This document shows positions 36,851-62,211 of a DNA stretch of 64,000 nt, piece by piece. The stretch comes from the human T2T-CHM13v2.0 reference genome, Homo sapiens. A program made the position numbers and the translations under genes. Every line of letters starts with the position of its first letter. The stretch's first letter is position 1. The DNA is taken from assembly GCF_009914755.1 (NCBI RefSeq), contig NC_060944.1, one strand, 5' to 3'. The notes below the pieces were generated by a model. It saw only the letters and a list, made by a program, of their open reading frames with translations, did no database searches and was not told where the DNA came from.

Positions 36851-39444
36851 GTAGCACCTGGGAGAAAAACACCTGCAGACAGGTAAAGTTCTTAGTGCAG
36901 TGCCTGGCTCAGTCATGATGGCAACTCGAATTGAGGCTCATCTGCTTTCTTAGAAGAGGTTAAATACAGGGAGACAAACAAGCTATTTGTGTTCTGTAGT
37001 GTCTAGAAGGCAGCAAGAAACCTTAAGCAGAGGGGCGGGAGATCGCCTTGATTTCTGTTCTTCAGTGGAGATTTTACAAGCTGATCTGAGTAAAGATCAA
37101 AAGGATCCAGTTTTCCCCAATACCTAACCGGAAACTCATCTGTCTGTGGCATGGAGCAACACCTTCCTTAAAGTGGCCCCACGAAATTTTTCTAAAGATG
37201 GAGTCGCATTGCTACCCAGGCTCGACTTGAACTCTTGGGCTCAAATAGTTCTTCCTAGCTCAGTCTCCCAAGTAGCTGGGACCATAGACACTCATTACTG
37301 ATGCTGGCTCAATTTCATGTTAACATTTCCCCCTTGCCTTTTATCCAAGGCCAATCACCCTGTTGCTTGTACTTAGGGGTTAACAGACTGGCCTTCCAAA
37401 TCATGTCCTTTTTATAAATAAAGTTTTATTGGCCCACAGCTAAACTTATTTCCTTCCCTATTCTCTGTAGCTGCATTACAGTGGCCGAGTTGGAACCTCT
37501 GTGCTACAACAGCAGTGGCAACAGAGCTGATAACAAGTAGGACCAGCAAAGCTCAAAACATTTACTATCTGGCCCTTAACTGAAAAAGTTTGCGGATCCC
37601 TGGGGCTCAGGTGAAGTCAAACTGCAAACATTCTCAGTTTCCTCTTCCAGATCCAGAGGGCTCTGCAAATCAAGGCTGGTGTAAGAATTGCCATTCTGGT
37701 CTGTGCCATGTCAGCTGCTCCTTTCTATTAAGGCTGTTTTATTTGGTTATTACCTGTACATTTTAAGTCTCATTCTAGCAGGTTTAGCCAGTTCAGCCCC
37801 CAATTCCGAATGATTTAACCCCATCCACTGCCATCTTCTAATTTCCTAGAAATGGTAAGGTAAGACTACCCCTACTCCTACAAGTTTCCTGGTCCTAGAC
37901 TTCCCTCTTAGCCTACTTTTCTCTGAATCTTGGAATTCTTGCCAGTCTCAAAAATTCTTTTAAGTTACCCAAATTCTTTTTAATACTCATTCAGCCTTAT
38001 TCTCTTGAACTACACTCTCAGCTTTGTGCAAATCCCATTTGTGTCTCTGCCAGAAAATTTGGTATCTTTTAGTGTGTTTTACAAGTCACACTTGCCAGTT
38101 CAGAGCAAAGTACTCTGCAGGAGGGCTTGCTACATTCTAAGACCATGGGCCAAATCTAGCCTGCCACCTGTTTTTGTAAAGTTTTATTGGAACACAGACA
38201 CATTTGTTTTTTCTTGCAATCTATGGTTGCTTTTGCACTAAAACCACAGAGCTGAGTAGTTGCAAAAAACTTTATGGCCCCACCCACTGCCTGAAGTAAA
38301 TATTGGGTTCACAGCTTTTTACTCACCTCTGCTCTATTGGGAATCCAAGTTTGCTGGGTGATACCAGCTTGGATATAAAATCCTTAAAGTCCATACAGCT
38401 GTTAACAAAAAATGCCTTCTAAAAAGGCTGATATCTTTCCTCTTTGTCTAAAGAGCTATAACAAGAAGTACAAGGAACGTTTATGTGATTTCAATCTATG
38501 GGTTCCCACTTGAAAGGTCAACAACCTTCTAGAACAGAAACGCAGATCAGACTCACGACAAACAGCAGAAAGGTAACAATAGCAACTGTACAATAGCACC
38601 AGCATTCAGTAACCAAACACTTTTCTGATCAAAACGATCATCTCCAAAGAGACTAATTCTATCCTGGGTCTCTGTCATCATTTTAATCTTTTCTTCTTAC
38701 AATAGAGATTCAGCAGTACACCATCACCTACCTGATGTAAAACTTAAACGGAGTCAGATTTGCCCAAACTACCACCATTCACAAAATAAACTAGGTACCT
38801 CTATTTCACAAGTGAAATAGTCCCTTCTACACAACCTATAAAATCTTACATCCTTTTTTCTTAGTTTACCAGGAACAATGGATCTACTTAATCTGTTTCA
38901 ATTCCAGAGATGTTCAGCTTGATGAGGGCACACAAGACTTTATATTTAAAAAGAGTATTTGAAGGAAAGATGCCAAAAGTAGAAACCAAGCAACTTTGGG
39001 TAAGTATTATATCCACTGAGATTTCATAACCTCCTAAGGGTCCATCTATGAGAAGAGGTTGGATTTTCAGTAGTTTGTGGGTTCAGCAAACACTAAATGC
39101 TTTCCGTGATGAAACAGATGCTGGTGTGAGGCTGTCCCACGTATCACATATCCCAGCACCCAGCACCAAGCTCAGGGCCCACTGGGCCCCTGGACTTTTC
39201 TCTCCAAATAGAATTAAACAGAATTTTGAATTCCACAACAGACAAGCACAGGCTGGGCTAGTTAGCTTGATCTTTGGCGCCACCTCCAGATCAAACTGCA
39301 TTTCGTTTTACTACAGTAGGAACTCATTGAGAAATCCAATGTGCGTTTATAATTAAGTTACTGAATGGGGCGCGGGCTGGGGATGGAGAACCTTCTACCG
39401 TAACTGTCTGTGGAGGGCTGCAAAATTGAGTGTTCCTTACATCA

Positions 39445-39993
39445 TGCTACCATGAGTCTGCCTTTTTTATTGTAAGACAACAGGTAAAAGAAACCACACA
39501 AACATATAAGGCAAACACTCTTAGAACGATCACCCAGGTTATGAAATAGAAGTTTTCCAGCAACCCCAGACCCTTCACGTACACCTTCCTCACTTTAACC
39601 CTTTCCACTCTAGAGATTAGTTTTAGTTTTCTATATCGTCTAAGTTTAATAATTCCATCAGAGATGGATCAGTTTTAAAATTGGAATCCGTTACGTAGAA
39701 GCTATCCCCATTGGATAGAGCAGGGCTTGGCAGACCCCGCCTTTGAATGAACAAGTCGACTTGCTCAGATAATCCTTGGAGGGAAGAGACAAATGCGAGG
39801 AGTGTCTCCACAGCCCTGCTTTGCTTTGCTTTCGTCACTGTCGCCCAGCCATCGCCTCTGAAGGCCTGTGAAGTTGGAGCGGCCAGCCCCAGAAGTGGTG
39901 CCCAAAGCCTGTCTCTCAGTGGCCTCACCTCTGGAGGGCTGGGCAACAGCACTGGTCAGAAGTTCCGACAGCTGACCACCCTCTTCGGCTGAG
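39445..39993 (-). other. ZFP64: 3' UTR of the terminal exon (end approximate)
   Basis: Lies between the stop codon and a minus-strand AATAAA. Confidence 0.7.
39466..39471 (-). terminator. Polyadenylation signal AATAAA
   Basis: tttatt on plus strand, about 520 nt past the stop. Confidence 0.7.
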
Positions 39994-40703
39994 CTAGAGG
40001 TCTTGGCTGGGCTCTAGGGGAGCCTCGAGCTGCCCCACGGAGACCAGGGTGCTGAGCTGTCCCGAGGCACCGCTTTCCGGTGGGAAGGTGACCAAGTCTG
40101 AGTTCTTGTTCTCACTCTGATCACTGTGCTGCTTCTTGTGGCATCTCAGAGAGTCATCCCTGACGAAGGAGGCGCCGCAGGTCTCACAGCGGAAGGCCCT
40201 CTGCGTCACGATCTTGGCCACGTGCTGGGAGCTGCCCTCTCTGAGCCCTTCCTTGCCCAGAGGGGCCCGGTTCTCCGTCTTGGCCTCGTCCCTGTGCACC
40301 TTGTCGACGTGCTTGGCCAGGCTGCTGGGCCGCTTCGTGTCGAAGCTGCAGAAGTCACACTTGAAGGGACGGTCCTTACAGTGGACTCTGCTGTGCACGC
40401 GCAGGGCGGCCGCGCTGGAGCAGGAGTAGCTGCACTCTGGACACTTCTCCGGGTGGTCGGCCTGGTGCAGCCGGCTGTGCTCCAGGAGGTCAGCCCGGTC
40501 CCGGCCCTGGAAGGCACAGTGCAGACATTTGAAGGTGTGCTTGATGCGGATGTGCGATTTGAGATTCGCCTTCATGGTGCAGCGGACGTCGCAGAACTCG
40601 CACTTGAAAGGCTTCTCCCCCGAGTGCACGATCATGTGCCTTTTCAAGTCCGAGCTGATTTTGAACTTGGCGCTACAGAGCCAGCACTGGAAGGGGGTAT
40701 CCC
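39994..40703 (-). CDS. ZFP64: Terminal coding exon: six C2H2 fingers plus a short tail ending EPSQDL*
   Basis: ctag| acceptor at 40704-40705, frame GDTPFQCWLC..., TAG at 39996-39994; within ORF 39994..40764. Confidence 0.95.
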
Positions 40704-43829: not shown

Positions 43830-44081
43830 CCGTGTGAGATCGCAGGTGGACGGTGAGCTGGCTGGAGTTGCGGCTGGCATAGGGGCAGAGCTGGCATTTG
43901 TACGGCCGCTCATCAGAGTGGATCCGCAGGTGCTTCTTGAGGCTACTGCTGTCCACGGCAGCGTAGTCACACAGGTGACACTTGTGTGGCTTCACACTGG
44001 TGTGGCACCGCATGTGCATGGTCAGGTTGTCCTTCCGGCTGAAGCACTTGTCACAGAACTCACACTTGTGCGGTTTGTCTC
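43830..44081 (-). CDS. ZFP64: Coding exon, 252 nt: three tandem C2H2 zinc fingers (GDKPHKCEFC...LTVHLRSHT)
   Basis: gaag| acceptor, |gtgagt donor, 84 codons = 3 x 28-aa fingers; within ORF 43777..44124. Confidence 0.95.
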
Positions 44082-52808: not shown

Positions 52809-52871
52809 CCGTGTGGATTCTGAGATGGCGGTCCAAGTCTTTCATGCCATGGACAGTTTTGAAGTGGCAAC
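52809..52871 (-). CDS. ZFP64: Coding exon, 63 nt: (G)[20 protein letters not shown](G), second half of an intron-split C2H2 finger
   Basis: ttttctag| acceptor, |gtaggt donor, phase 1-1; completes the C-x4-C...H-x3-H finger. Confidence 0.92.
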
Positions 52872-53872: not shown

Positions 53873-54022
53873 CTGGGTAGCAACAGTTGAACGTCCTCTC
53901 TCCAAGGGTGGCCATTTGTTCCCTTGCCTCTGAGGGAAGAGTGATGACAGGGGCCTTCGGAGTGTCAGTGCTTTCAGTGGAGAGGCAGTTTGCTTTTGGA
54001 ACATCATCATCAAGTTCTGAAG
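53873..54022 (-). CDS. ZFP64: Coding exon, 150 nt: (A)SELDDDVPKANCLSTESTDTPKAPVITLPSEAREQMATLGERTFNCCYP(G)
   Basis: tttcag| acceptor, |gtaaga donor, open frame, phase 1-1; matches the recalled ZFP64 long isoform. Confidence 0.9.
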
Positions 54023-54108
54023 CTGAAATTGAGGCATAGTTTTGCTTAGTTTCTCATTTATAACCACCATGCTAAGTCTTAGAATACAGTAGGTTTGGGC
54101 TTATTTCA

Positions 54109-54568
<460 letters not shown>

Positions 54569-55254
54569 CTAAAAAACATATGAGTACTTCTTAAATGGCA
54601 TGAAGACCTAGTTTTTTCTAACAATTTCTAATCCATCCCAGGCTGATATTTCTGTAAAATATGATAAACAAGAATTAGGGGAGAGGTGGAATAAGATAAA
54701 AAGAGCCCAATCATTAGATACAGCAAAAAGCTGGATGCCATGGCAATGTCAAACTTTTTTTTTTTTTTTTAAGATGCTTACTCTGGATTTCTGATTTGTT
54801 TTGCCTCAGTTCAGCAAAAGGTCACAGACCACACATCACTGATCTCCAGGATAAAACAGTTGTTTCAACAAATAACTTGAAAGAAGAAAGATGGAAGAGG
54901 AGAAAAAGCAAAGACTGAGAGACTTGAGGTGGTCGACAATATCGGGACTTTACTTGGCTCCTGATTAGAATATGCTGGAAAAGCTGAGATGGTAAGAAGT
55001 GTGCTCACTCACTGCAAGTTTGCTACAGGGGTTTTATACTTTGGTGTGAAAATGGAATTAGAGTTTAAAGAGCATTCCCCATAGTCTAAGGATGAATGTT
55101 GAAACATTTACAAGTTGTATGATATGTGAATTTGTCTTCAAAAATAATCCAGGGCAGGGAGAGAGCTGGCATAAGGAGAAATGAGATTGACCACATGCAA
55201 TTAATGGTTGAAGTGGATCAATGGATGAGAATTCACTATAGTCTATTTTTAGGA

Positions 55255-55325
55255 AGGTTGAACTAGGTGAAATCGCTATTTTTGTTAGCCAAAACGGTCA
55301 AATAATTTCATGTTTCAATCTAATA
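55255..55325. mobile_element. MADE2-like mariner-derived MITE
   Basis: aggttgaactaggtgaaat...atttcatgtttcaatctaata imperfect palindrome. Confidence 0.55.
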
Positions 55326-55431
55326 TGTAGGTTTTAAGATTCCTACAGCAAAGATTAAGTACTAGAAGATTCTGAAATATCTCAAAATAGACTTAAATCT
55401 AAAAGGAAAAAAGGTCCCATCAAGGTCTGAA

Positions 55432-55999
<568 letters not shown>

Positions 56000-56411
56000 T
56001 GACTAGCTTATGAATTATAGGCCAAGGTCTGGGACTTTCTCTGTCCTAAGGTTATTACAAAAGGTGGATTATCACTTTTATTGAGAAGTTTGTGCGGGTG
56101 AAGGAATCTTAGCATGAGAGGCTGTAGAGCACAGTGGTGAGGGCTTCAGTTTTAGGCAGAGGGTTTGCTCAGCTATGTGCTGTGCAACTATTGGCAAGCT
56201 ACTTAACCTTTCTGAGCTTCAGTTTACTCGTTTGCAAAAGGAGATTACATGCCTCAGAGTTGCAGAGTTAAACAAGATGAAAAAATATATAAGTTCTCAG
56301 TACAGTGTCATCTGAGTAAATACAATTGCGTGGCTTCAGATGTCGCAAGTGAGGACTACAGATTTCACATCCTAGCAGTTGTGCTCGAAGCCCCTTAACA
56401 AGTGATCTAGT

Positions 56412-56632
56412 CCAGTGGCTCTCAACTGGGGGCCATTCTACCACCAAAGGACACTCAGCAATGCCTGGGAACATTTTCAATTGTCATGATTCTGTTTGCA
56501 TGCATGTTTGAGAATGGCATCTAGTGGGTGAAGGCCAGGGATGCTGCTAGACATCCTATAGGGCATAGGACAGCCCCCACAAGGAAACGATGCAGCCCCA
56601 AAGGTCAATAGGGCTGGGGTTGAGAAAGTCTG
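56412..56632 (+). mobile_element. MER20 (hAT-Charlie)
   Basis: cagtggctctcaactggggg...gcatctagtgggtgaaggccagggatgctgct...ggttgagaaa. Confidence 0.8.
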
Positions 56633-56789
56633 CAGTAGTCCTACTCCCAATGTTTCTTCCAAGTGTAATCCTGATACTATCTGTGTCACAATCACCTAGA
56701 TCATGGGTTCAGTGTAGTTTCCCAGGCCTTACCCTATACTCACTGAAAACTTAGGGGCAGGAGGAGGGGTGGTAGTGTGGATCAAGTAA

Positions 56790-57142
<353 letters not shown>

Positions 57143-57204
57143 CTCAGGGCCTTGCATTTTTGAAGCACTTGCCAGATGATTCTGCTGTATTACTTGTAAG
57201 TCCT

Positions 57205-57855
<651 letters not shown>

Positions 57856-58089
57856 CTCTTGCTCTGTGAGCAAGAAACTGGCTCAGATGCTCAAGGTTGC
57901 AGGACTGGAAGTTTTCAGCTCATTGGAACCCACACTTGCCAGATCTGCAACCCATCCTATGTCCCTCAGGGACAGACACAAACAAAGCCTCATTACATAG
58001 CAACTCACATACTAGAAGAGAAAACCATTAAACTCTTGAGGGTTTTAATTCCACAGAAGTCAAGCAAGACTGAAAACAAATCTAAGTGA

Positions 58090-58280
58090 GGCACTGTATA
58101 ACACAGTGGTTTGGGGAACAGACTGGGAAACCAGCTGATAAGTTTCAATTCCAGTTTTACCATTAGCTGTGTCCCACTGGATAAGCTACTCAACTTCCCC
58201 GTTCCTCAGTTTCCACATCTGTGAAATGGGTATTATGGCCGTCTCATTAGCTTAGATGAAGTTCTTTAGTATATGTAAGA
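58090..58280 (+). mobile_element. MIR
   Basis: cctcagtttccacatctgtgaaatggg. Confidence 0.65.
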
Positions 58281-60568
58281 GAACCTCATGTATTAGTCAA
58301 TACTGTATAAATGCTATTAGTGTTATTCACTGATATACACACGTAAGATTCTACCAGATTCTCAGGGGGAGAAAGATGCATGTTTTCAACGCAAACTAGA
58401 AAAGTGAGAGAGAGGTGGGTTAAAGGATGACCCAGATAGAGCCTCTGATGGGGAGGTGTGAGGGGCCTCCGATTTCTTTTACGTTTAGACACCCAGGAAA
58501 CCAAAGAAGGCCTGAAGCCCACTCTCCTGGGAAAGGTGCAGCTGGGGGAGACCCTCTGCCTCTGGAAGTGGGGGTGGGCCGCATTTGACTATTAGAAACC
58601 AGGTTAGCATGGCGAGGGTTTTAACTCCTGGGGAAACGGATGATGTTCCCTCAGTAAGGTTCCTCCAGCCCCTTCGTCATTTTACTGGTGGTGACAGGAA
58701 GTCCACTAATTACTTTCCATTTTATTTTCCTCCAAAAGCTACTTGAGTTGCAAAGACACTTGCAAATTAAGAGTGGCCCAACCTTCGTAAAAAATGTACC
58801 CCCTTGCCAGTGTCGCAGACCAAAGGTACTAGGATAAAACGTCAGTTGGAAGACGGTTTTTTCTCCGAAGTGGTGGCTGGGGTTGAGGCACACTACTGGG
58901 CCGGCAGAGTTTGCGTCCTGCTCCCACAGAAGTCACCTCAGTACTCCAGGACGCACGACACCCTCCCCATGCCCGAAACACTGGGTGCGGCTCCAGAAGG
59001 CGCCTCGCAGCGCTGGCTGCAGGAATCCAAAGTAGCTCAGTGCACAGACTTTCAACTCCAGCCTGGGGTTACTCAGCAATTCTCTTCTATAAACACCTCC
59101 CCCAAAAGACTCAGCATCCCCAGTACCTCCCCAACTTCCCCGAGGCGCAGAGATCAGCAAGAGCCCCGCCCCTCGACCCAGGGGACGGGATCCTGTAAGT
59201 CTCACCTGCCTATCTCCATCCCAGGCCTCGGGCACGAGGGTGGTTGTACTATCCTGGTTATGGTAGCTCCACTCGAGCAAGCTTTATTTTAACATATAAG
59301 CTATTCGTTTAGTGGAGGCTTCATTAAACTACTCCCCTCCACCACCACCTCGGGAAGTTGTGGTCAAAACCCACCAGACCGACTGTGGTGGAAGTTGATG
59401 CGGAAGCTGGAGAGCCCGCGGCTCTGGAGGGGTGAGCCGCCCCGGAGAGGGGACCCATCCTCCTTTCCGCGCCCGGAAAGAGCGGGGGAGAAGAGGAAGT
59501 CCAGTTACAACTCCTTTCCTCAGCCCCTTAAAGGAAAGGTATCAGCTAACCACGGGGAGCTGGCAGCCTAAGAGAAAGTAGGAACCTACAATCTCTTAAT
59601 CTAAGCACAAGATAAGCAAAAAGGGAAGCGCCTTAGAAATGCAGATTCCCCAACCCCACCCCTGAGATTCCAGTGGAGGCGGGGGATGGGGGGATCCCTA
59701 ACTTGCAGGAAGAATTTGGCGAGCGAGAAAAGGTCCCCTCCCGCAGGCTCTTCTGAAGCGGAGGATCCCGGGACGAGAAATGCTGCCCGGGGGGCTTAAG
59801 GTAGCCGACGATCTCCTTGCTACATCCTGTGTCCACGTGGCAGCCGAGGAGGGGGTGTGGGGGCCGCCTGTTAAGTGCGACAGCATCACTGCTCTATCCC
59901 CACCACGGCTCCCACTTCGCTCAGATAAAATGCAGAGCTCTTACCAAGGCTCACGGCCGTCCCCCGCCCCCCACCGTCTGCCCCCATCACCTCTCGGGCC
60001 TCCGGTGACCTCTCGGGCTACAGCAGCGCTGACGCCCTGGGTCCCTGCGCTTCTGTTCCCTCGGCCTGGAATGCTCTTCCCCCGGGTACCTGCACAGCTC
60101 GCTCCCTCCCATCCTTCGGGTCTTCGCTCGAACGTCCGCTCCTCGGTGAGGCCTTCCCTGGACAACGCATTTGAAACGTAACCCCAAGGCAAGAAGCCAC
60201 CTTCCAGGCGCGCAGCCGAAGCCCAGTGCCAAGGAGGCCGGAGACTCGGGTGCCCGCGCATCCCGAAAACAGCCTCTGAGGGGTCCTCTGAGCATCCTTC
60301 CAGCGTGTTTGGGAGGCAAACTCGTTGACTAGCTCTTGAGAGGAGTGGCTAGAGGAATCCAGGCGGGGAAGGGGACGGTGGACTCCAGGAGAGTGTAATT
60401 TACAAAGGCGGGGGGCGGGGACGCCCAGGTCCGAGTCCCAGGACTCTGCGCCGGACGCTTCGCCCGCCCTTTCAGGTCCCCTGCCCGGTCCTCGTACCCG
60501 CGCGGGTCCGGAGAACCTCTGAGCACCGGCCCCCAGCCCCCGGGCGGGGCTCCAGCGGCGCTACTCAC

Positions 60569-60674
60569 CCGGCTCCCCCGCCACCTGCGGGGCCACCTCC
60601 GCACACTCCCGGCGCGCAGGCCGCGGCTCCTCGGAGTTGAGGTGCTGGGGCTTGGCCTGCTTGCGCCGCGACAT
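60569..60674 (-). CDS. ZFP64: First coding exon of the internal-promoter ZFP64 (ZNF338-type) transcript; encodes MSRRKQAKPQHLNSEEPRPARRECAEVAPQVAGEP (SALL-type NuRD-interaction motif)
   Basis: Minus strand reads cgcgccATGTCGCGGCGCAAGCAGGCCAAGCCCCAGCAC...GAGCCGG|gtgagt. Good Kozak context, canonical donor, 106 nt (phase 1) in frame with exon 54022-53873; lies in a CpG island. Confidence 0.88.
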
Positions 60675-60830
60675 GGCGCGAGGACCGGGCTCCCCGCGCG
60701 TCCCTAGGAGTGGCCTACTTCACACAACGAATTCCCGGAGTTCGGAAATTACCCCCCTTCGGCCGGAACGCGCATGTCCCGGCAATTCTGCTCATCAGCC
60801 GAGCAGGGCGATTTATCAAGAGTCCTGACG

Positions 60831-60840
60831 GCTGATTGGC
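60831..60840 (-). promoter_or_regulatory. CCAAT box (GCCAATCAGC, NF-Y consensus)
   Basis: gctgattggc on plus; followed on minus by TATA-like GATAAAT (60817-60811). Confidence 0.6.
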
Positions 60841-60898
60841 CTGGAGCCAAGACCCCAGGAGTCCCGCGGACTTGCGGTCCGCTCCCGGGCAGCCCGCG

Positions 60899-61200
60899 CC
60901 ACCTGGGAGCTCGTTAGAAATGCAGACTCTCGGGCTCTACCCCAGACCCGCTGAATCAGAATCTGCATTTTAACAAGATCCCCAGGTGATTCGCATGCAC
61001 ATTAAAGTTTGAGAAACCGTGTCTGCATTTTAACGAGATCCCCAGGTGATTCGTTTGCCCATTAAAATTTCAGAAGCGCAGCTCTCCTCCAACTTTAATG
61101 TGCGCACGAGTCACTGGGGATCTCGTTAAAATGCAGATTCTGACTCAGTGGGTCTGGGGTGGGGCCTGAGCTCCTGTATTTCTAACGAGCTCCCAGGTGG
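60899..61200. mobile_element. Inverted pair of MER5B-like elements plus a partial third copy
   Basis: 60899-61009 is nearly the reverse complement of 61091-61200; 61022-61077 is a partial direct copy. Confidence 0.8.
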
Positions 61201-62211
61201 CGCTGTGGCTGCTGCGCTGCACAGGCTGCGCTTTTAGATTCGGACTTAATTGGTCTGGGCTGGGACCTGGGCACTGGGATGTTTTTTTAAAAAAGCCGTC
61301 TCCCTCCCTCACCACCCCCATCACACACACAGGTCATTCTGATGTGCATCCAAGCTGAGAAGCACGACCTCCACTCCTGGTTCTCAACCCTGCTGCATAC
61401 CCAAATTTAAATTTTAAATGAGGAGTGTCTCCAACTGCAGGGAGAAATGCAGATTCCGAAAGTTCTGGATTCAGGTGGCCGAGGCCAGAAATGTGTGTTT
61501 TTATATAGCACGCGCCCGCTCCCGCCCCGTGACTCGGGCGCACCGGCTCTTGGACCACACAGGAGTGCTTTTGGGGCCAACCCGGCGCCGGCCCCGCCCA
61601 GCAGGTGACGGAGGCGTGGTCCTCGGGGGGTTGAGCTAATTAGCGTTCATGCTCAGACTGGCTGGGACCTCGATGAGACCCGAGGGAGACCCCTCCTTGC
61701 GCCGCGTAATTGACATCCAATGGGAAGCAAGAAAGCCACCTACATCCCCCAGGTGTTTACTTTCTTCAAATTAGGGAGTTACTTAAGACTGGGTTGTGCC
61801 CCAAGCTTGCCCGAACCTGAGAATCACGTGGGGGCCCTTGTTTCAAAAAGACCCAGCCAGGCTCATCTCCGAGTTTTTGGGGCGGGGCCTGAGAATCTGT
61901 ATTTTTAACAGCGCCGCGTATGAGTTTTACGGGGTGGTCCTGTGGGGTTAGCAGCATCTGTAACGAGCCTTCTGTGAGGTTACCGTTGGCGAACCCCACG
62001 GCGGGGCCTGCGAGAACGGCATTTTTGCTTAATTGTTTCCATTTCTCAAAAGCTGACCTGTTTTCCTCAAACTTCCCCTTGATTTTCAGGTTGTGAATCG
62101 ACTTGGGAATATTTGTGTAATGCCCGGTGAAGTCATGTCAGGTTAAATTTCCGAGACTTAAACTTTTTAAAAAACACAACGCTTCAAGTCTTCTTTGGGA
62201 TGTATGTGTAG

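What the first reader, a model, noticed from the sequence alone, without database searches (positions are those of the whole stretch)
39623..39996. 3' UTR appears to be a fossil of the ZFP64 C-terminal tail behind a premature TAG
Seen: the CDS stops at CCC AGC CAA GAC CTC TAG CTC AGC. UTR translations in different frames give QALGTTSG...NFTGL and QSRAVET...FVSSLQGLSEQ...IQ...PAL...DS. Recalled canonical ZFP64 continues PSQVPQFSE...QTFITSSG...DFEGL...QNIAVATT...FSSSSQQELPKQ...IQ...PAL...DS. Inference: a CAG>TAG nonsense change plus frameshifts removed the long tail, which I recall being the activation region. The duplicate would then have lost activation while gaining a NuRD motif and could antagonise ZFP64.
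Basis: partly seen in the sequence, partly recalled or inferred. Interest (0 to 1): 0.75.

Follow-up and report, generated by a model that had tools for sequence, protein, structure and literature searches.

The report
SALL4-ZFP64 fusion gene with tail fossil
A form annotated under human ZFP64 joins a copy of the promoter and first exon of the neighbouring gene SALL4 to a copy of ZFP64's zinc fingers, with ZFP64's reported activation tail left decayed behind a stop codon; it likely arose in early placental mammals and is predicted to repress genes rather than activate them.

Summary
The fossil is real at DNA level only. The TAG (39994-39996) aligns with the CAG of canonical ZFP64. UTR 39713-39971 matches the last ~100 tail codons: score 187, best of 546 control tiles 126. 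tblastn (E 0.067) and a tail HMM are not significant. About 200-240 tail bases are missing, and 39623-39712 is unsupported. All 53 duplicate-type proteins found (all placental, elephant included) stop at essentially the same place.

The internal promoter, exon 1 and splice donor (60390-60858) are a copy of SALL4's (73% over 348 columns), joined in phase to copies of ZFP64 exons 3-6. This fits the junction of one tandem duplication on the placental stem. The NuRD motif is kept in 18 of 19 orthologs, but 5 of 9 fingers changed DNA-contact positions, so direct antagonism of ZFP64 is doubtful. The exon duplication and truncation are in print (PMC8373072); I did not find the SALL4 origin in ten searches.

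The parts
39994..39996 (-). TAG stop of the duplicate last exon, opposite the CAG (Gln) of canonical ZFP64 exon 6
   Evidence: DNA alignment; same TAG in the chr14 retrocopy; same end point in 53 of 53 duplicate-type proteins
39981..39993 (-). Short run of homology directly after the stop (canonical F-S-E-G-R codons), followed by loss of about 200-240 nt of tail
39713..39971 (-). Decayed copy of canonical tail codons ~86-184 (TDGA...PALLCP), in two main frames, now 3' UTR
   Evidence: 161 of 258 identical, score 187 vs max 126 of 546 control tiles; blocks listed
39448..39712 (-). Distal 3' UTR with AATAAA at 39466-39471; no significant match to the canonical UTR; better conserved against the retrocopy than the fossil part
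   Evidence: 244 of 262 vs 229 of 274 identical, Fisher p 7e-4
39263..39328 (-). 3' flank element paralogous to an element behind the canonical gene (extended coordinates 106264-106329); indicates that the copied block ran past the end of exon 6
   Evidence: score 168 vs max 119 of 228 controls; the genome search returned only the element itself
39997..40703 (-). Coding part of the duplicate last exon, a copy of ZFP64 exon 6 with six C2H2 fingers
   Evidence: 523 of 698 columns identical to canonical
43830..44081 (-). Copy of ZFP64 exon 5 (three fingers)
   Evidence: 87% over 273 nt
52809..52871 (-). Copy of ZFP64 exon 4
   Evidence: 79% over 91 nt
53873..54022 (-). Copy of ZFP64 exon 3 with about 40 nt of the upstream intron; acceptor moved 6 nt downstream, same phase
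   Evidence: score 283 vs max 118 of 1124 controls
60569..60674 (-). Coding part of exon 1, a copy of SALL4 exon 1; NuRD-interaction motif at 60639-60674; phase-1 donor
   Evidence: 11 of 12 motif residues identical to SALL4; best non-self protein match in the genome is SALL4 exon 1, E 0.43 for this 35-aa query
60390..60858 (-). SALL4-derived block: proximal promoter, 5' UTR, exon 1, donor and start of intron 1; CpG island (GC 0.68, CpG o/e 0.89 over 60401-61000)
   Evidence: 73% over 348 columns, E 1.5e-43 genome-wide, to G000:C20:53573707-53574049; extended alignment
61591..61734 (-). Second SALL4-derived upstream element, collinear with the first
   Evidence: 75% over 100 nt, E 1e-10, to G000:C20:53574122-53574221; extended
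60896..61221 (.). Interspersed repeat with inverted arms between the two SALL4-derived blocks (747-nt gap here, 73-nt gap at SALL4); MER5-like by recall only
   Evidence: most of the 78 genome matches fall here; gap sizes

Best explanation
The UTR holds the decayed remains of the ZFP64 tail, and the unit it belongs to joins a copy of the SALL4 promoter and exon 1 to copies of ZFP64 exons 3-6; this unit likely formed at the junction of one tandem duplication on the placental-mammal stem and is predicted to encode a NuRD-recruiting repressor with partly changed DNA targets. Steps: (1) ZFP64 lies upstream of SALL4 on the same strand [shown]. (2) A block from ZFP64 intron 2 to SALL4 intron 1 was duplicated head to tail [inferred from the order and ends of the copied pieces]. 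(3) SALL4 exon 1 and ZFP64 exon 2 both end in phase 1, so the new splice was in frame from the start [phases shown]. (4) A CAG>TAG change cut off the 193-residue tail, which then lost about 200-240 nt and its frame [shown; order of events not shown]. (5) The fingers diverged fast and were then held nearly constant [shown by tree and alignment]. (6) The ~425-aa product would bind RBBP4/7 through MSRRKQAKPQHL and bring NuRD to its sites [predicted from motif identity with SALL4]. (7) The same exons are also spliced onto canonical exons 1-5 to give a 645-aa form with neither motif nor tail [annotated models].
For: Fossil. SALL4 origin: the only non-repeat paralogous match of the exon-1 region in the genome search is the SALL4 5' end, covering non-coding promoter, exon, donor and intron start, plus a second collinear element. 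Copy runs past exon 6: flank element 39263-39328. Phases. Age: duplicate-type proteins in primates, rodents, lagomorphs, bats, carnivores, ruminants, shrew and elephant, none from marsupials, monotremes or reptiles among 53 and 59 hits. 0 of 120 hits of the canonical-tail search carry RRKQ. In a 28-row tree the duplicates are one clade (100/100) that groups with placental canonical ZFP64 against 7 non-placental rows (100/99), on a long stem of 0.52. Selection on the motif: 15 of 19 MSRRKQ proteins have the human 12-mer, 3 have A>T and 1 is degenerate, while the rest of exon 1 varies freely. RRKQxxP is the published RBBP4-binding motif of SALL4, FOG-1 and BCL11A (passages, 10.1101/2023.07.31.551264). 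A spliced retrocopy on chr14 shows that the internal unit was transcribed in the germ line. The event is marked 1 in the Proteomics column of the PMC8373072 supplement.
Against: No binding, expression or reporter data were seen for the short form. Protein-level tests of the fossil are negative. The single-duplication model predicts paralogy between the two spacers. Only the 66-nt flank element and the SALL4 blocks were found in the parts held, and about 200 kb (G000:C20:53.605-53.805 Mb) was not compared. The junction is bracketed only to 54060-60390. The retrocopy derives from the exon variant with the donor at 60090 and is cut short before the ATG, so it does not prove the motif-bearing splice. 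The proteomics mark is for the C-terminal swap of the long transcript. Mouse isoforms 2 and 3 were hardly detectable in Purkinje cells (passage, PMC12178792). The same passage says isoforms 1 and 2 both bind NICD through their C-terminal region; if isoform 2 ends in these exons (my inference from the miRNA targets), not all activating contacts were lost. The homolog searches are word-seeded and clustered at 90%, no xenarthran was listed, and gene conversion between tandem copies could make the duplicate look younger. Three hits break the pattern: P0175 and P0176 end in unrelated C-termini, and P0092 joins duplicate-type fingers to a canonical tail.
Confidence: 0.75

Rival explanations
1. One reading: the short form is a dominant antagonist that occupies ZFP64's own sites (for example the KMT2A promoter) and replaces activation by NuRD repression.
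For: 4 of 9 compared fingers keep identical contact residues (DSSK, NSQV, ISDR, SAAV). Tail lost, motif present. ZFP64 acts through clustered motifs at the MLL promoter (review passage, PMC7465943). An HDAC1 co-IP with ZFP64 is reported, with no mention of isoform in the text (PMC10527061).
Against: 5 of 9 fingers differ at positions -1/2/3/6: RDKT>RDNM, MGNS>MANS, SATK>DADE, QSNK>RSSK, RDSS>RDSC. Each duplicate state is held in 47-52 of 52 proteins, which suggests selection for a different target. A 3-residue linker deletion precedes the most changed finger.
Confidence: 0.28
2. Two separate events: ZFP64 exons 3-6 were tandemly duplicated as an alternative C-terminus, and a SALL4 5' fragment was copied into the intron independently.
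For: No further spacer paralogy in the parts compared. PMC8373072 treats the exons as a C-terminal substitution.
Against: Order, strand and end points of all copied pieces (ZFP64 from intron 2 to its 3' flank; SALL4 from upstream element to intron 1) are what one head-to-tail duplication leaves at its junction. Both parts have the same species range.
Confidence: 0.15
3. The motif-bearing short form is a minor by-product; selection acts on the 645-aa read-through form, and the SALL4-derived block matters as an enhancer or promoter only.
For: Only 17 of 53 duplicate-type hits start with the motif; most others have the canonical N-terminus. RefSeq marks enhancers at 60110-62045 (hub annotation). 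The retrocopy uses the donor at 60090, and that exon variant has a stop two codons past the 60569 donor.
Against: The 12-residue motif is kept in 18 of 19 proteins while adjacent exon-1 residues are not, which points to selection on the peptide.
Confidence: 0.12
4. The UTR similarity is chance.
For: tblastn E 0.067; HMM 2.7 bits; one of four DNA scoring schemes not significant.
Against: 0 of 546 genomic tiles and 0 of 300 shuffles reach the score in three schemes. The retrocopy UTR gives the same alignment (score 130). The match lies in the expected place and order.
Confidence: 0.03

Closest known systems
ZFP64 tandem exon duplication-derived substitution (Martinez Gomez et al. 2021, PMC8373072; one passage and two supplement rows seen)
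   Same: [quoted passage not shown]
   Different: Here the copy covered the tail and reached the 3' flank, so the truncation came after the duplication. An internal SALL4-derived promoter and exon make the copy a separate transcription unit. The data here point to the placental stem rather than all mammals.
Canonical ZFP64 (681 aa activator of KMT2A/MLL; seen only through passages of PMC12178792 and PMC7465943)
   Same: Homologous finger array; 4 of 9 compared fingers have identical contact residues.
   Different: Lacks the 193-aa tail; 5 of 9 fingers changed; the short form lacks the ZFP64 N-terminus and has a SALL4 one.
N-terminal NuRD-interaction-motif (RRKQxxP) zinc-finger proteins: SALL1, SALL4, FOG-1, BCL11A, ZNF296, ZNF827 (passages of 10.1101/2023.07.31.551264)
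   Same: Motif at the extreme N-terminus, 11 of 12 residues identical to SALL4.
   Different: ZFP64 is not among the motif proteins in the passages read. Its DNA-binding part comes from an unrelated gene, and binding is untested.
Chimeric genes formed at tandem-duplication junctions (general class, recalled)
   Same: 5' part of the downstream gene fused in frame to the 3' part of the upstream gene, with both parents intact.
   Different: This one is annotated as isoforms of one parent and shares its exons with a read-through form of that parent.

Membership tests
Coding fossil in a 3' UTR (post-duplication truncation) | Stop codon at a position homologous to a sense codon of the parent | tested here: met
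   TAG opposite CAG
Coding fossil in a 3' UTR (post-duplication truncation) | Collinear DNA similarity to the parent's coding tail above chance | tested here: met
   0 of 546 tiles as high; 3 of 4 schemes
   tblastn E 0.067; HMM 2.7 bits vs control max 5.7
Coding fossil in a 3' UTR (post-duplication truncation) | Released from coding constraint | tested here: met
   frameshifts and deletion; 83.6% vs 92.9% (CDS) identity to the retrocopy, p 3e-5; CpG decay not corrected for
Tandem-duplication junction chimera | 5' part homologous to one neighbour and 3' part to the other, same strand, both parents intact | tested here: met
Tandem-duplication junction chimera | Compatible intron phase at the fusion | tested here: met
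   three phase-1 donors
Tandem-duplication junction chimera | Paralogy of the intervening spacer and a mapped breakpoint | tested here: inconclusive
   one 66-nt flank element; about 200 kb not compared
Tandem-duplication junction chimera | Own spliced transcript | tested here: inconclusive
   RefSeq exons (hub table), protein models in 19 clusters, retrocopy of a variant splice; no RNA data seen
N-terminal NuRD-interaction-motif proteins | RRKQxxP at the N-terminus, conserved | tested here: met
   18 of 19 keep MSRRKQ[AT]KPQHL; motif definition
N-terminal NuRD-interaction-motif proteins | Direct RBBP4/7 binding and repression | not testable with these tools
   needs pull-down and reporter assays
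Dominant-negative paralogue of ZFP64 | Same DNA-contact residues as the parent | tested here: not met
   5 of 9 fingers differ
Dominant-negative paralogue of ZFP64 | Shared occupancy and opposite effect on targets | not testable with these tools
   needs isoform-specific ChIP-seq

The most novel reading that the evidence does not exclude
A placental-mammal-specific transcription factor gene is hidden inside the ZFP64 annotation. It is driven by a copy of the SALL4 promoter, so it is active with SALL4 in germ line and early embryo, and it uses SALL4's NuRD motif and a re-tuned ZFP64 finger array to silence its own set of targets.
Probability: 0.4. Interest if true: 0.78.

Novelty: new member of a known kind. 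Interest (0 to 1): 0.6.

Why it matters
The fossil alone is a modest point: it shows that the whole last exon was copied and then truncated, which refines the published 'part of exon 6' description. The fusion matters more. A conserved ~425-aa protein filed as a ZFP64 isoform is by descent a separate SALL4/ZFP64 hybrid, predicted to have the opposite effector to ZFP64. Gene-level expression, antibody, knockdown and CRISPR data on 'ZFP64' may mix the two, which could explain reports of both activation (KMT2A) and HDAC1-linked repression (NUMB). It is also a clean, datable case of a regulator born at a duplication junction on the placental stem, and each prediction is cheap to test.

Tried and rejected
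tblastn of the 193-aa tail against the UTR and the whole window: nothing significant in the UTR; a plus-strand hit at 58954-59163 (E 0.006, 27%) was treated as chance. Profile HMM of 29 tails, taken from the 103 of 120 hits ending in DSIPD that also held the anchor motif: not significant. An early permissive alignment suggested homology into the canonical 3' UTR; rejected after tile controls. Stop read-through restoring the tail: rejected, the frame after TAG gives 22 unrelated residues and a stop. Codon-position identity in the fossil (58/85, 54/87, 49/86) cannot date the loss, because the canonical branch alone gives a third-position excess. Tree: 32 of about 180 proteins were chosen, and 4 (hedgehog, kiwi, caecilian, coelacanth) dropped out for lack of an anchor; the tree is midpoint-drawn and no AU test was run. 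Finger tallies left out P0092 and the rows without the anchor finger (52 of 53 and 111 of 119 used). Spacer comparison covered only the sequence held. Lu et al. 2018 and Wang et al. 2013 were not held; Sakamoto et al. 2008 was seen only as a citation. No structure or complex prediction was run; a SALL4-like peptide on RBBP4 would pass by likeness to solved structures. Imprinting papers (PMC10012579, PMC6102241, PMC11924184; passages) concern the canonical promoter or intron 2 and add nothing on this unit. The pig chr17 paper lists both genes without comment.

Full report
OBSERVATION. The minus-strand exon 39448-40703 encodes six C2H2 fingers and ends EPSQDL-TAG at 39994-39996. A genome search with the exon found a chr14 copy (89%) and the canonical ZFP64 exon 6 about 68 kb away (76% over 611 nt). 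Read from the genome, the canonical exon continues for 193 residues beyond this point. In the DNA alignment the TAG lies opposite a CAG, and similarity continues 13 bases.

IS THE FOSSIL MORE THAN CHANCE? At protein level no: the best tblastn hit has E 0.067, and a profile of 29 tails gives 2.7 bits while control frames reach 5.7 (1638 frames searched, 892 scored). At DNA level yes. Tail nt 257-551 aligns with 39971-39713 at 161 of 258 columns, score 187, against mean 73.9 and max 126 in 546 genomic tiles. Three of four scoring schemes beat all 300 shuffles; the fourth did not, 50 of 300. About 200-240 nt after the stop are missing and the rest lies in two main frames. The canonical 3' UTR does not match (130 and 313 of 546 controls as high), so 39623-39712 is unsupported. 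A 66-nt element at 39263-39328 matches an element behind the canonical gene (168 vs max 119 of 228) and returned only itself in a genome search. The copied block therefore likely ran past the end of exon 6. The element looks CTCF-like (recalled motif), so part of the similarity could be motif constraint. Against the chr14 retrocopy the fossil part is 229 of 274 identical, the CDS 651 of 701 and the distal UTR 244 of 262 (p 3e-5 and 7e-4), consistent with free decay.

STOP ACROSS MAMMALS. A search with the exon's last 116 residues (proteins of 413 aa or more) gave 53 hits, all placental, elephant included. All end 37-48 residues after the last finger's DSLRxH, 42 of them at exactly 47, in the same kind of terminus. 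Exceptions in other searches: two bat models with unrelated ends (P0175, P0176) and one unnamed protein with duplicate-type fingers and a canonical tail (P0092), either an assembly chimera or a conversion. The canonical tail is conserved to reptiles and amphibians: 103 of 120 listed hits end in DSIPD, none has RRKQ.

WHAT THE UNIT IS. Searching the genome with the exon-1 region gave, apart from a repeat and the retrocopy, one match: G000:C20:53573707-53574049, 73%, E 1.5e-43. That locus encodes MSRRKQAKPQHINSEE; I name it SALL4 from recall of that sequence and from the gene order (pig map). The alignment covers the proximal promoter almost base for base, the 5' UTR, exon 1, the donor and about 180 nt of intron. 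A second upstream element is collinear, separated by a repeat that is absent at SALL4. The next four exons are copies of ZFP64 exons 3, 4, 5 and 6; exon 3 with its acceptor flank scores 283 vs max 118 of 1124 controls. SALL4 exon 1, the copy's exon 1 and ZFP64 exon 2 all end in phase 1. In transcription order the locus reads: ZFP64, its 3' flank, SALL4-like promoter and exon 1, ZFP64 exons 3-6 again, the 3' flank again, then SALL4. One head-to-tail duplication from ZFP64 intron 2 to SALL4 intron 1 leaves exactly this (inference). No other collinear spacer match was found in the sequence held; about 200 kb was not compared, and the junction is bracketed only to 54060-60390.

AGE. A search with the elephant N-terminal 115 residues gave 59 hits; the three non-placental ones (echidna, a bird, a fish zinc-finger protein) match 31-89% of the region weakly and none is duplicate-type. 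In a 28-row tree the 11 duplicates are one clade (100/100, stem 0.52) and group with the 10 placental canonical rows against 7 non-placental rows (100/99). This points to the placental stem. Caveats: seeded searches, 90% clustering, no xenarthran listed, possible gene conversion.

HOW IT LIKELY WORKS. Of 19 proteins starting MSRRKQ, 15 have MSRRKQAKPQHL, 3 have A>T and 1 is degenerate, while the rest of exon 1 varies. RRKQxxP mediates direct RBBP4 binding in FOG-1, SALL1, SALL4, BCL11A and ZNF827. So the ~425-aa form is predicted to recruit NuRD. The lost tail is described second-hand as a transactivation domain. Contact positions are the same in 4 of 9 fingers and differ in 5, each duplicate state held in 47-52 of 52 proteins. 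I therefore favour a repressor with partly new targets over a plain antagonist. A 645-aa read-through form has neither motif nor tail. A spliced, poly(A)-tailed retrocopy on chr14 (44909948-44911863) carries the same TAG and shows germ-line transcription of the internal unit, from the variant donor at 60090. Not shown: expression pattern, translation of the short form, NuRD binding, targets.

WHAT IS KNOWN. PMC8373072 (one passage, two supplement rows) already reports the exon 3-6 duplication and the truncated exon 6 as a C-terminal substitution. I read passages only of 10.1101/2023.07.31.551264, PMC12178792, PMC10012579, PMC9526175, PMC12155391, PMC6102241, PMC11924184, PMC2374978, PMC7465943 and PMC10527061. 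Ten searches, each combining ZFP64 with terms such as ZNF338, SALL4, NuRD, RBBP4, MBD3, chimeric, duplication, paralog, isoform or alternative promoter, were seen as listings of at most 40 rows. Neither the listings nor the passages showed a SALL4 origin, a NuRD motif in ZFP64, or the UTR fossil. Subscription papers, including Lu et al. 2018, were not held, so this is not proof of novelty.

VERDICT. Observation partly confirmed; interpretation partly supported. My odds: fossil real 0.95, SALL4 origin of the 5' part 0.95, single tandem duplication 0.8, NuRD recruitment 0.8, direct antagonism of ZFP64 about 0.3. Novelty: new member of a known kind. Interest 0.6, carried by the fusion rather than by the fossil.

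Noticed in passing
G000:C14:44909948-44911863 (L002, L008, L018): Processed pseudogene of the internal transcript: four splice junctions, poly(A) remnant, frameshifts, same TAG; 5' end truncated at window 60310, uses the donor at 60090.
   Followed up: yes
window 60090-61290 (-): The long exon-1 variant runs through the 60569 donor, and the MSRRKQ frame stops two codons later, so it cannot give the motif-bearing protein.
   Followed up: partly
window 60896-61221: Repeat with inverted arms inserted between the two SALL4-derived promoter blocks; MER5-like by recall. If so, the insertion gives a minimum age for the duplication.
   Followed up: partly
window 39263-39328: The paralogous 3' flank element contains a CTCF-like core (recalled motif) in both copies.
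   Followed up: partly
window 39448-39712: Distal 3' UTR is as conserved against the retrocopy as the CDS (93%), unlike the fossil part (84%); it may hold regulatory elements.
   Followed up: partly
window 54022-54030 (-): The ancestral acceptor AG of exon 3 reads AA in the copy; splicing uses the next AG 6 nt downstream, same phase.
   Followed up: yes
P0092 (unnamed source): Protein with duplicate-type fingers at the start and a full canonical tail; assembly chimera or gene conversion.
   Followed up: no
P0179 (Dipodomys spectabilis model): The only ortholog with a degenerate motif, and more finger-region changes; possible relaxation in kangaroo rats.
   Followed up: no
L010 and L012 (extended coordinates 77091-79110 and 96125-98693) vs L029: Two multi-block inverted matches (70-85%) to G000:C20:53.547-53.551 Mb; probably one repeat family.
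   Followed up: no
window 58954-59163 (+): tblastn hit of the canonical tail, E 0.006, 27% identity, wrong strand; treated as chance.
   Followed up: no
window 60110-62045: The two RefSeq enhancer elements of the hub table overlap both SALL4-derived blocks.
   Followed up: no
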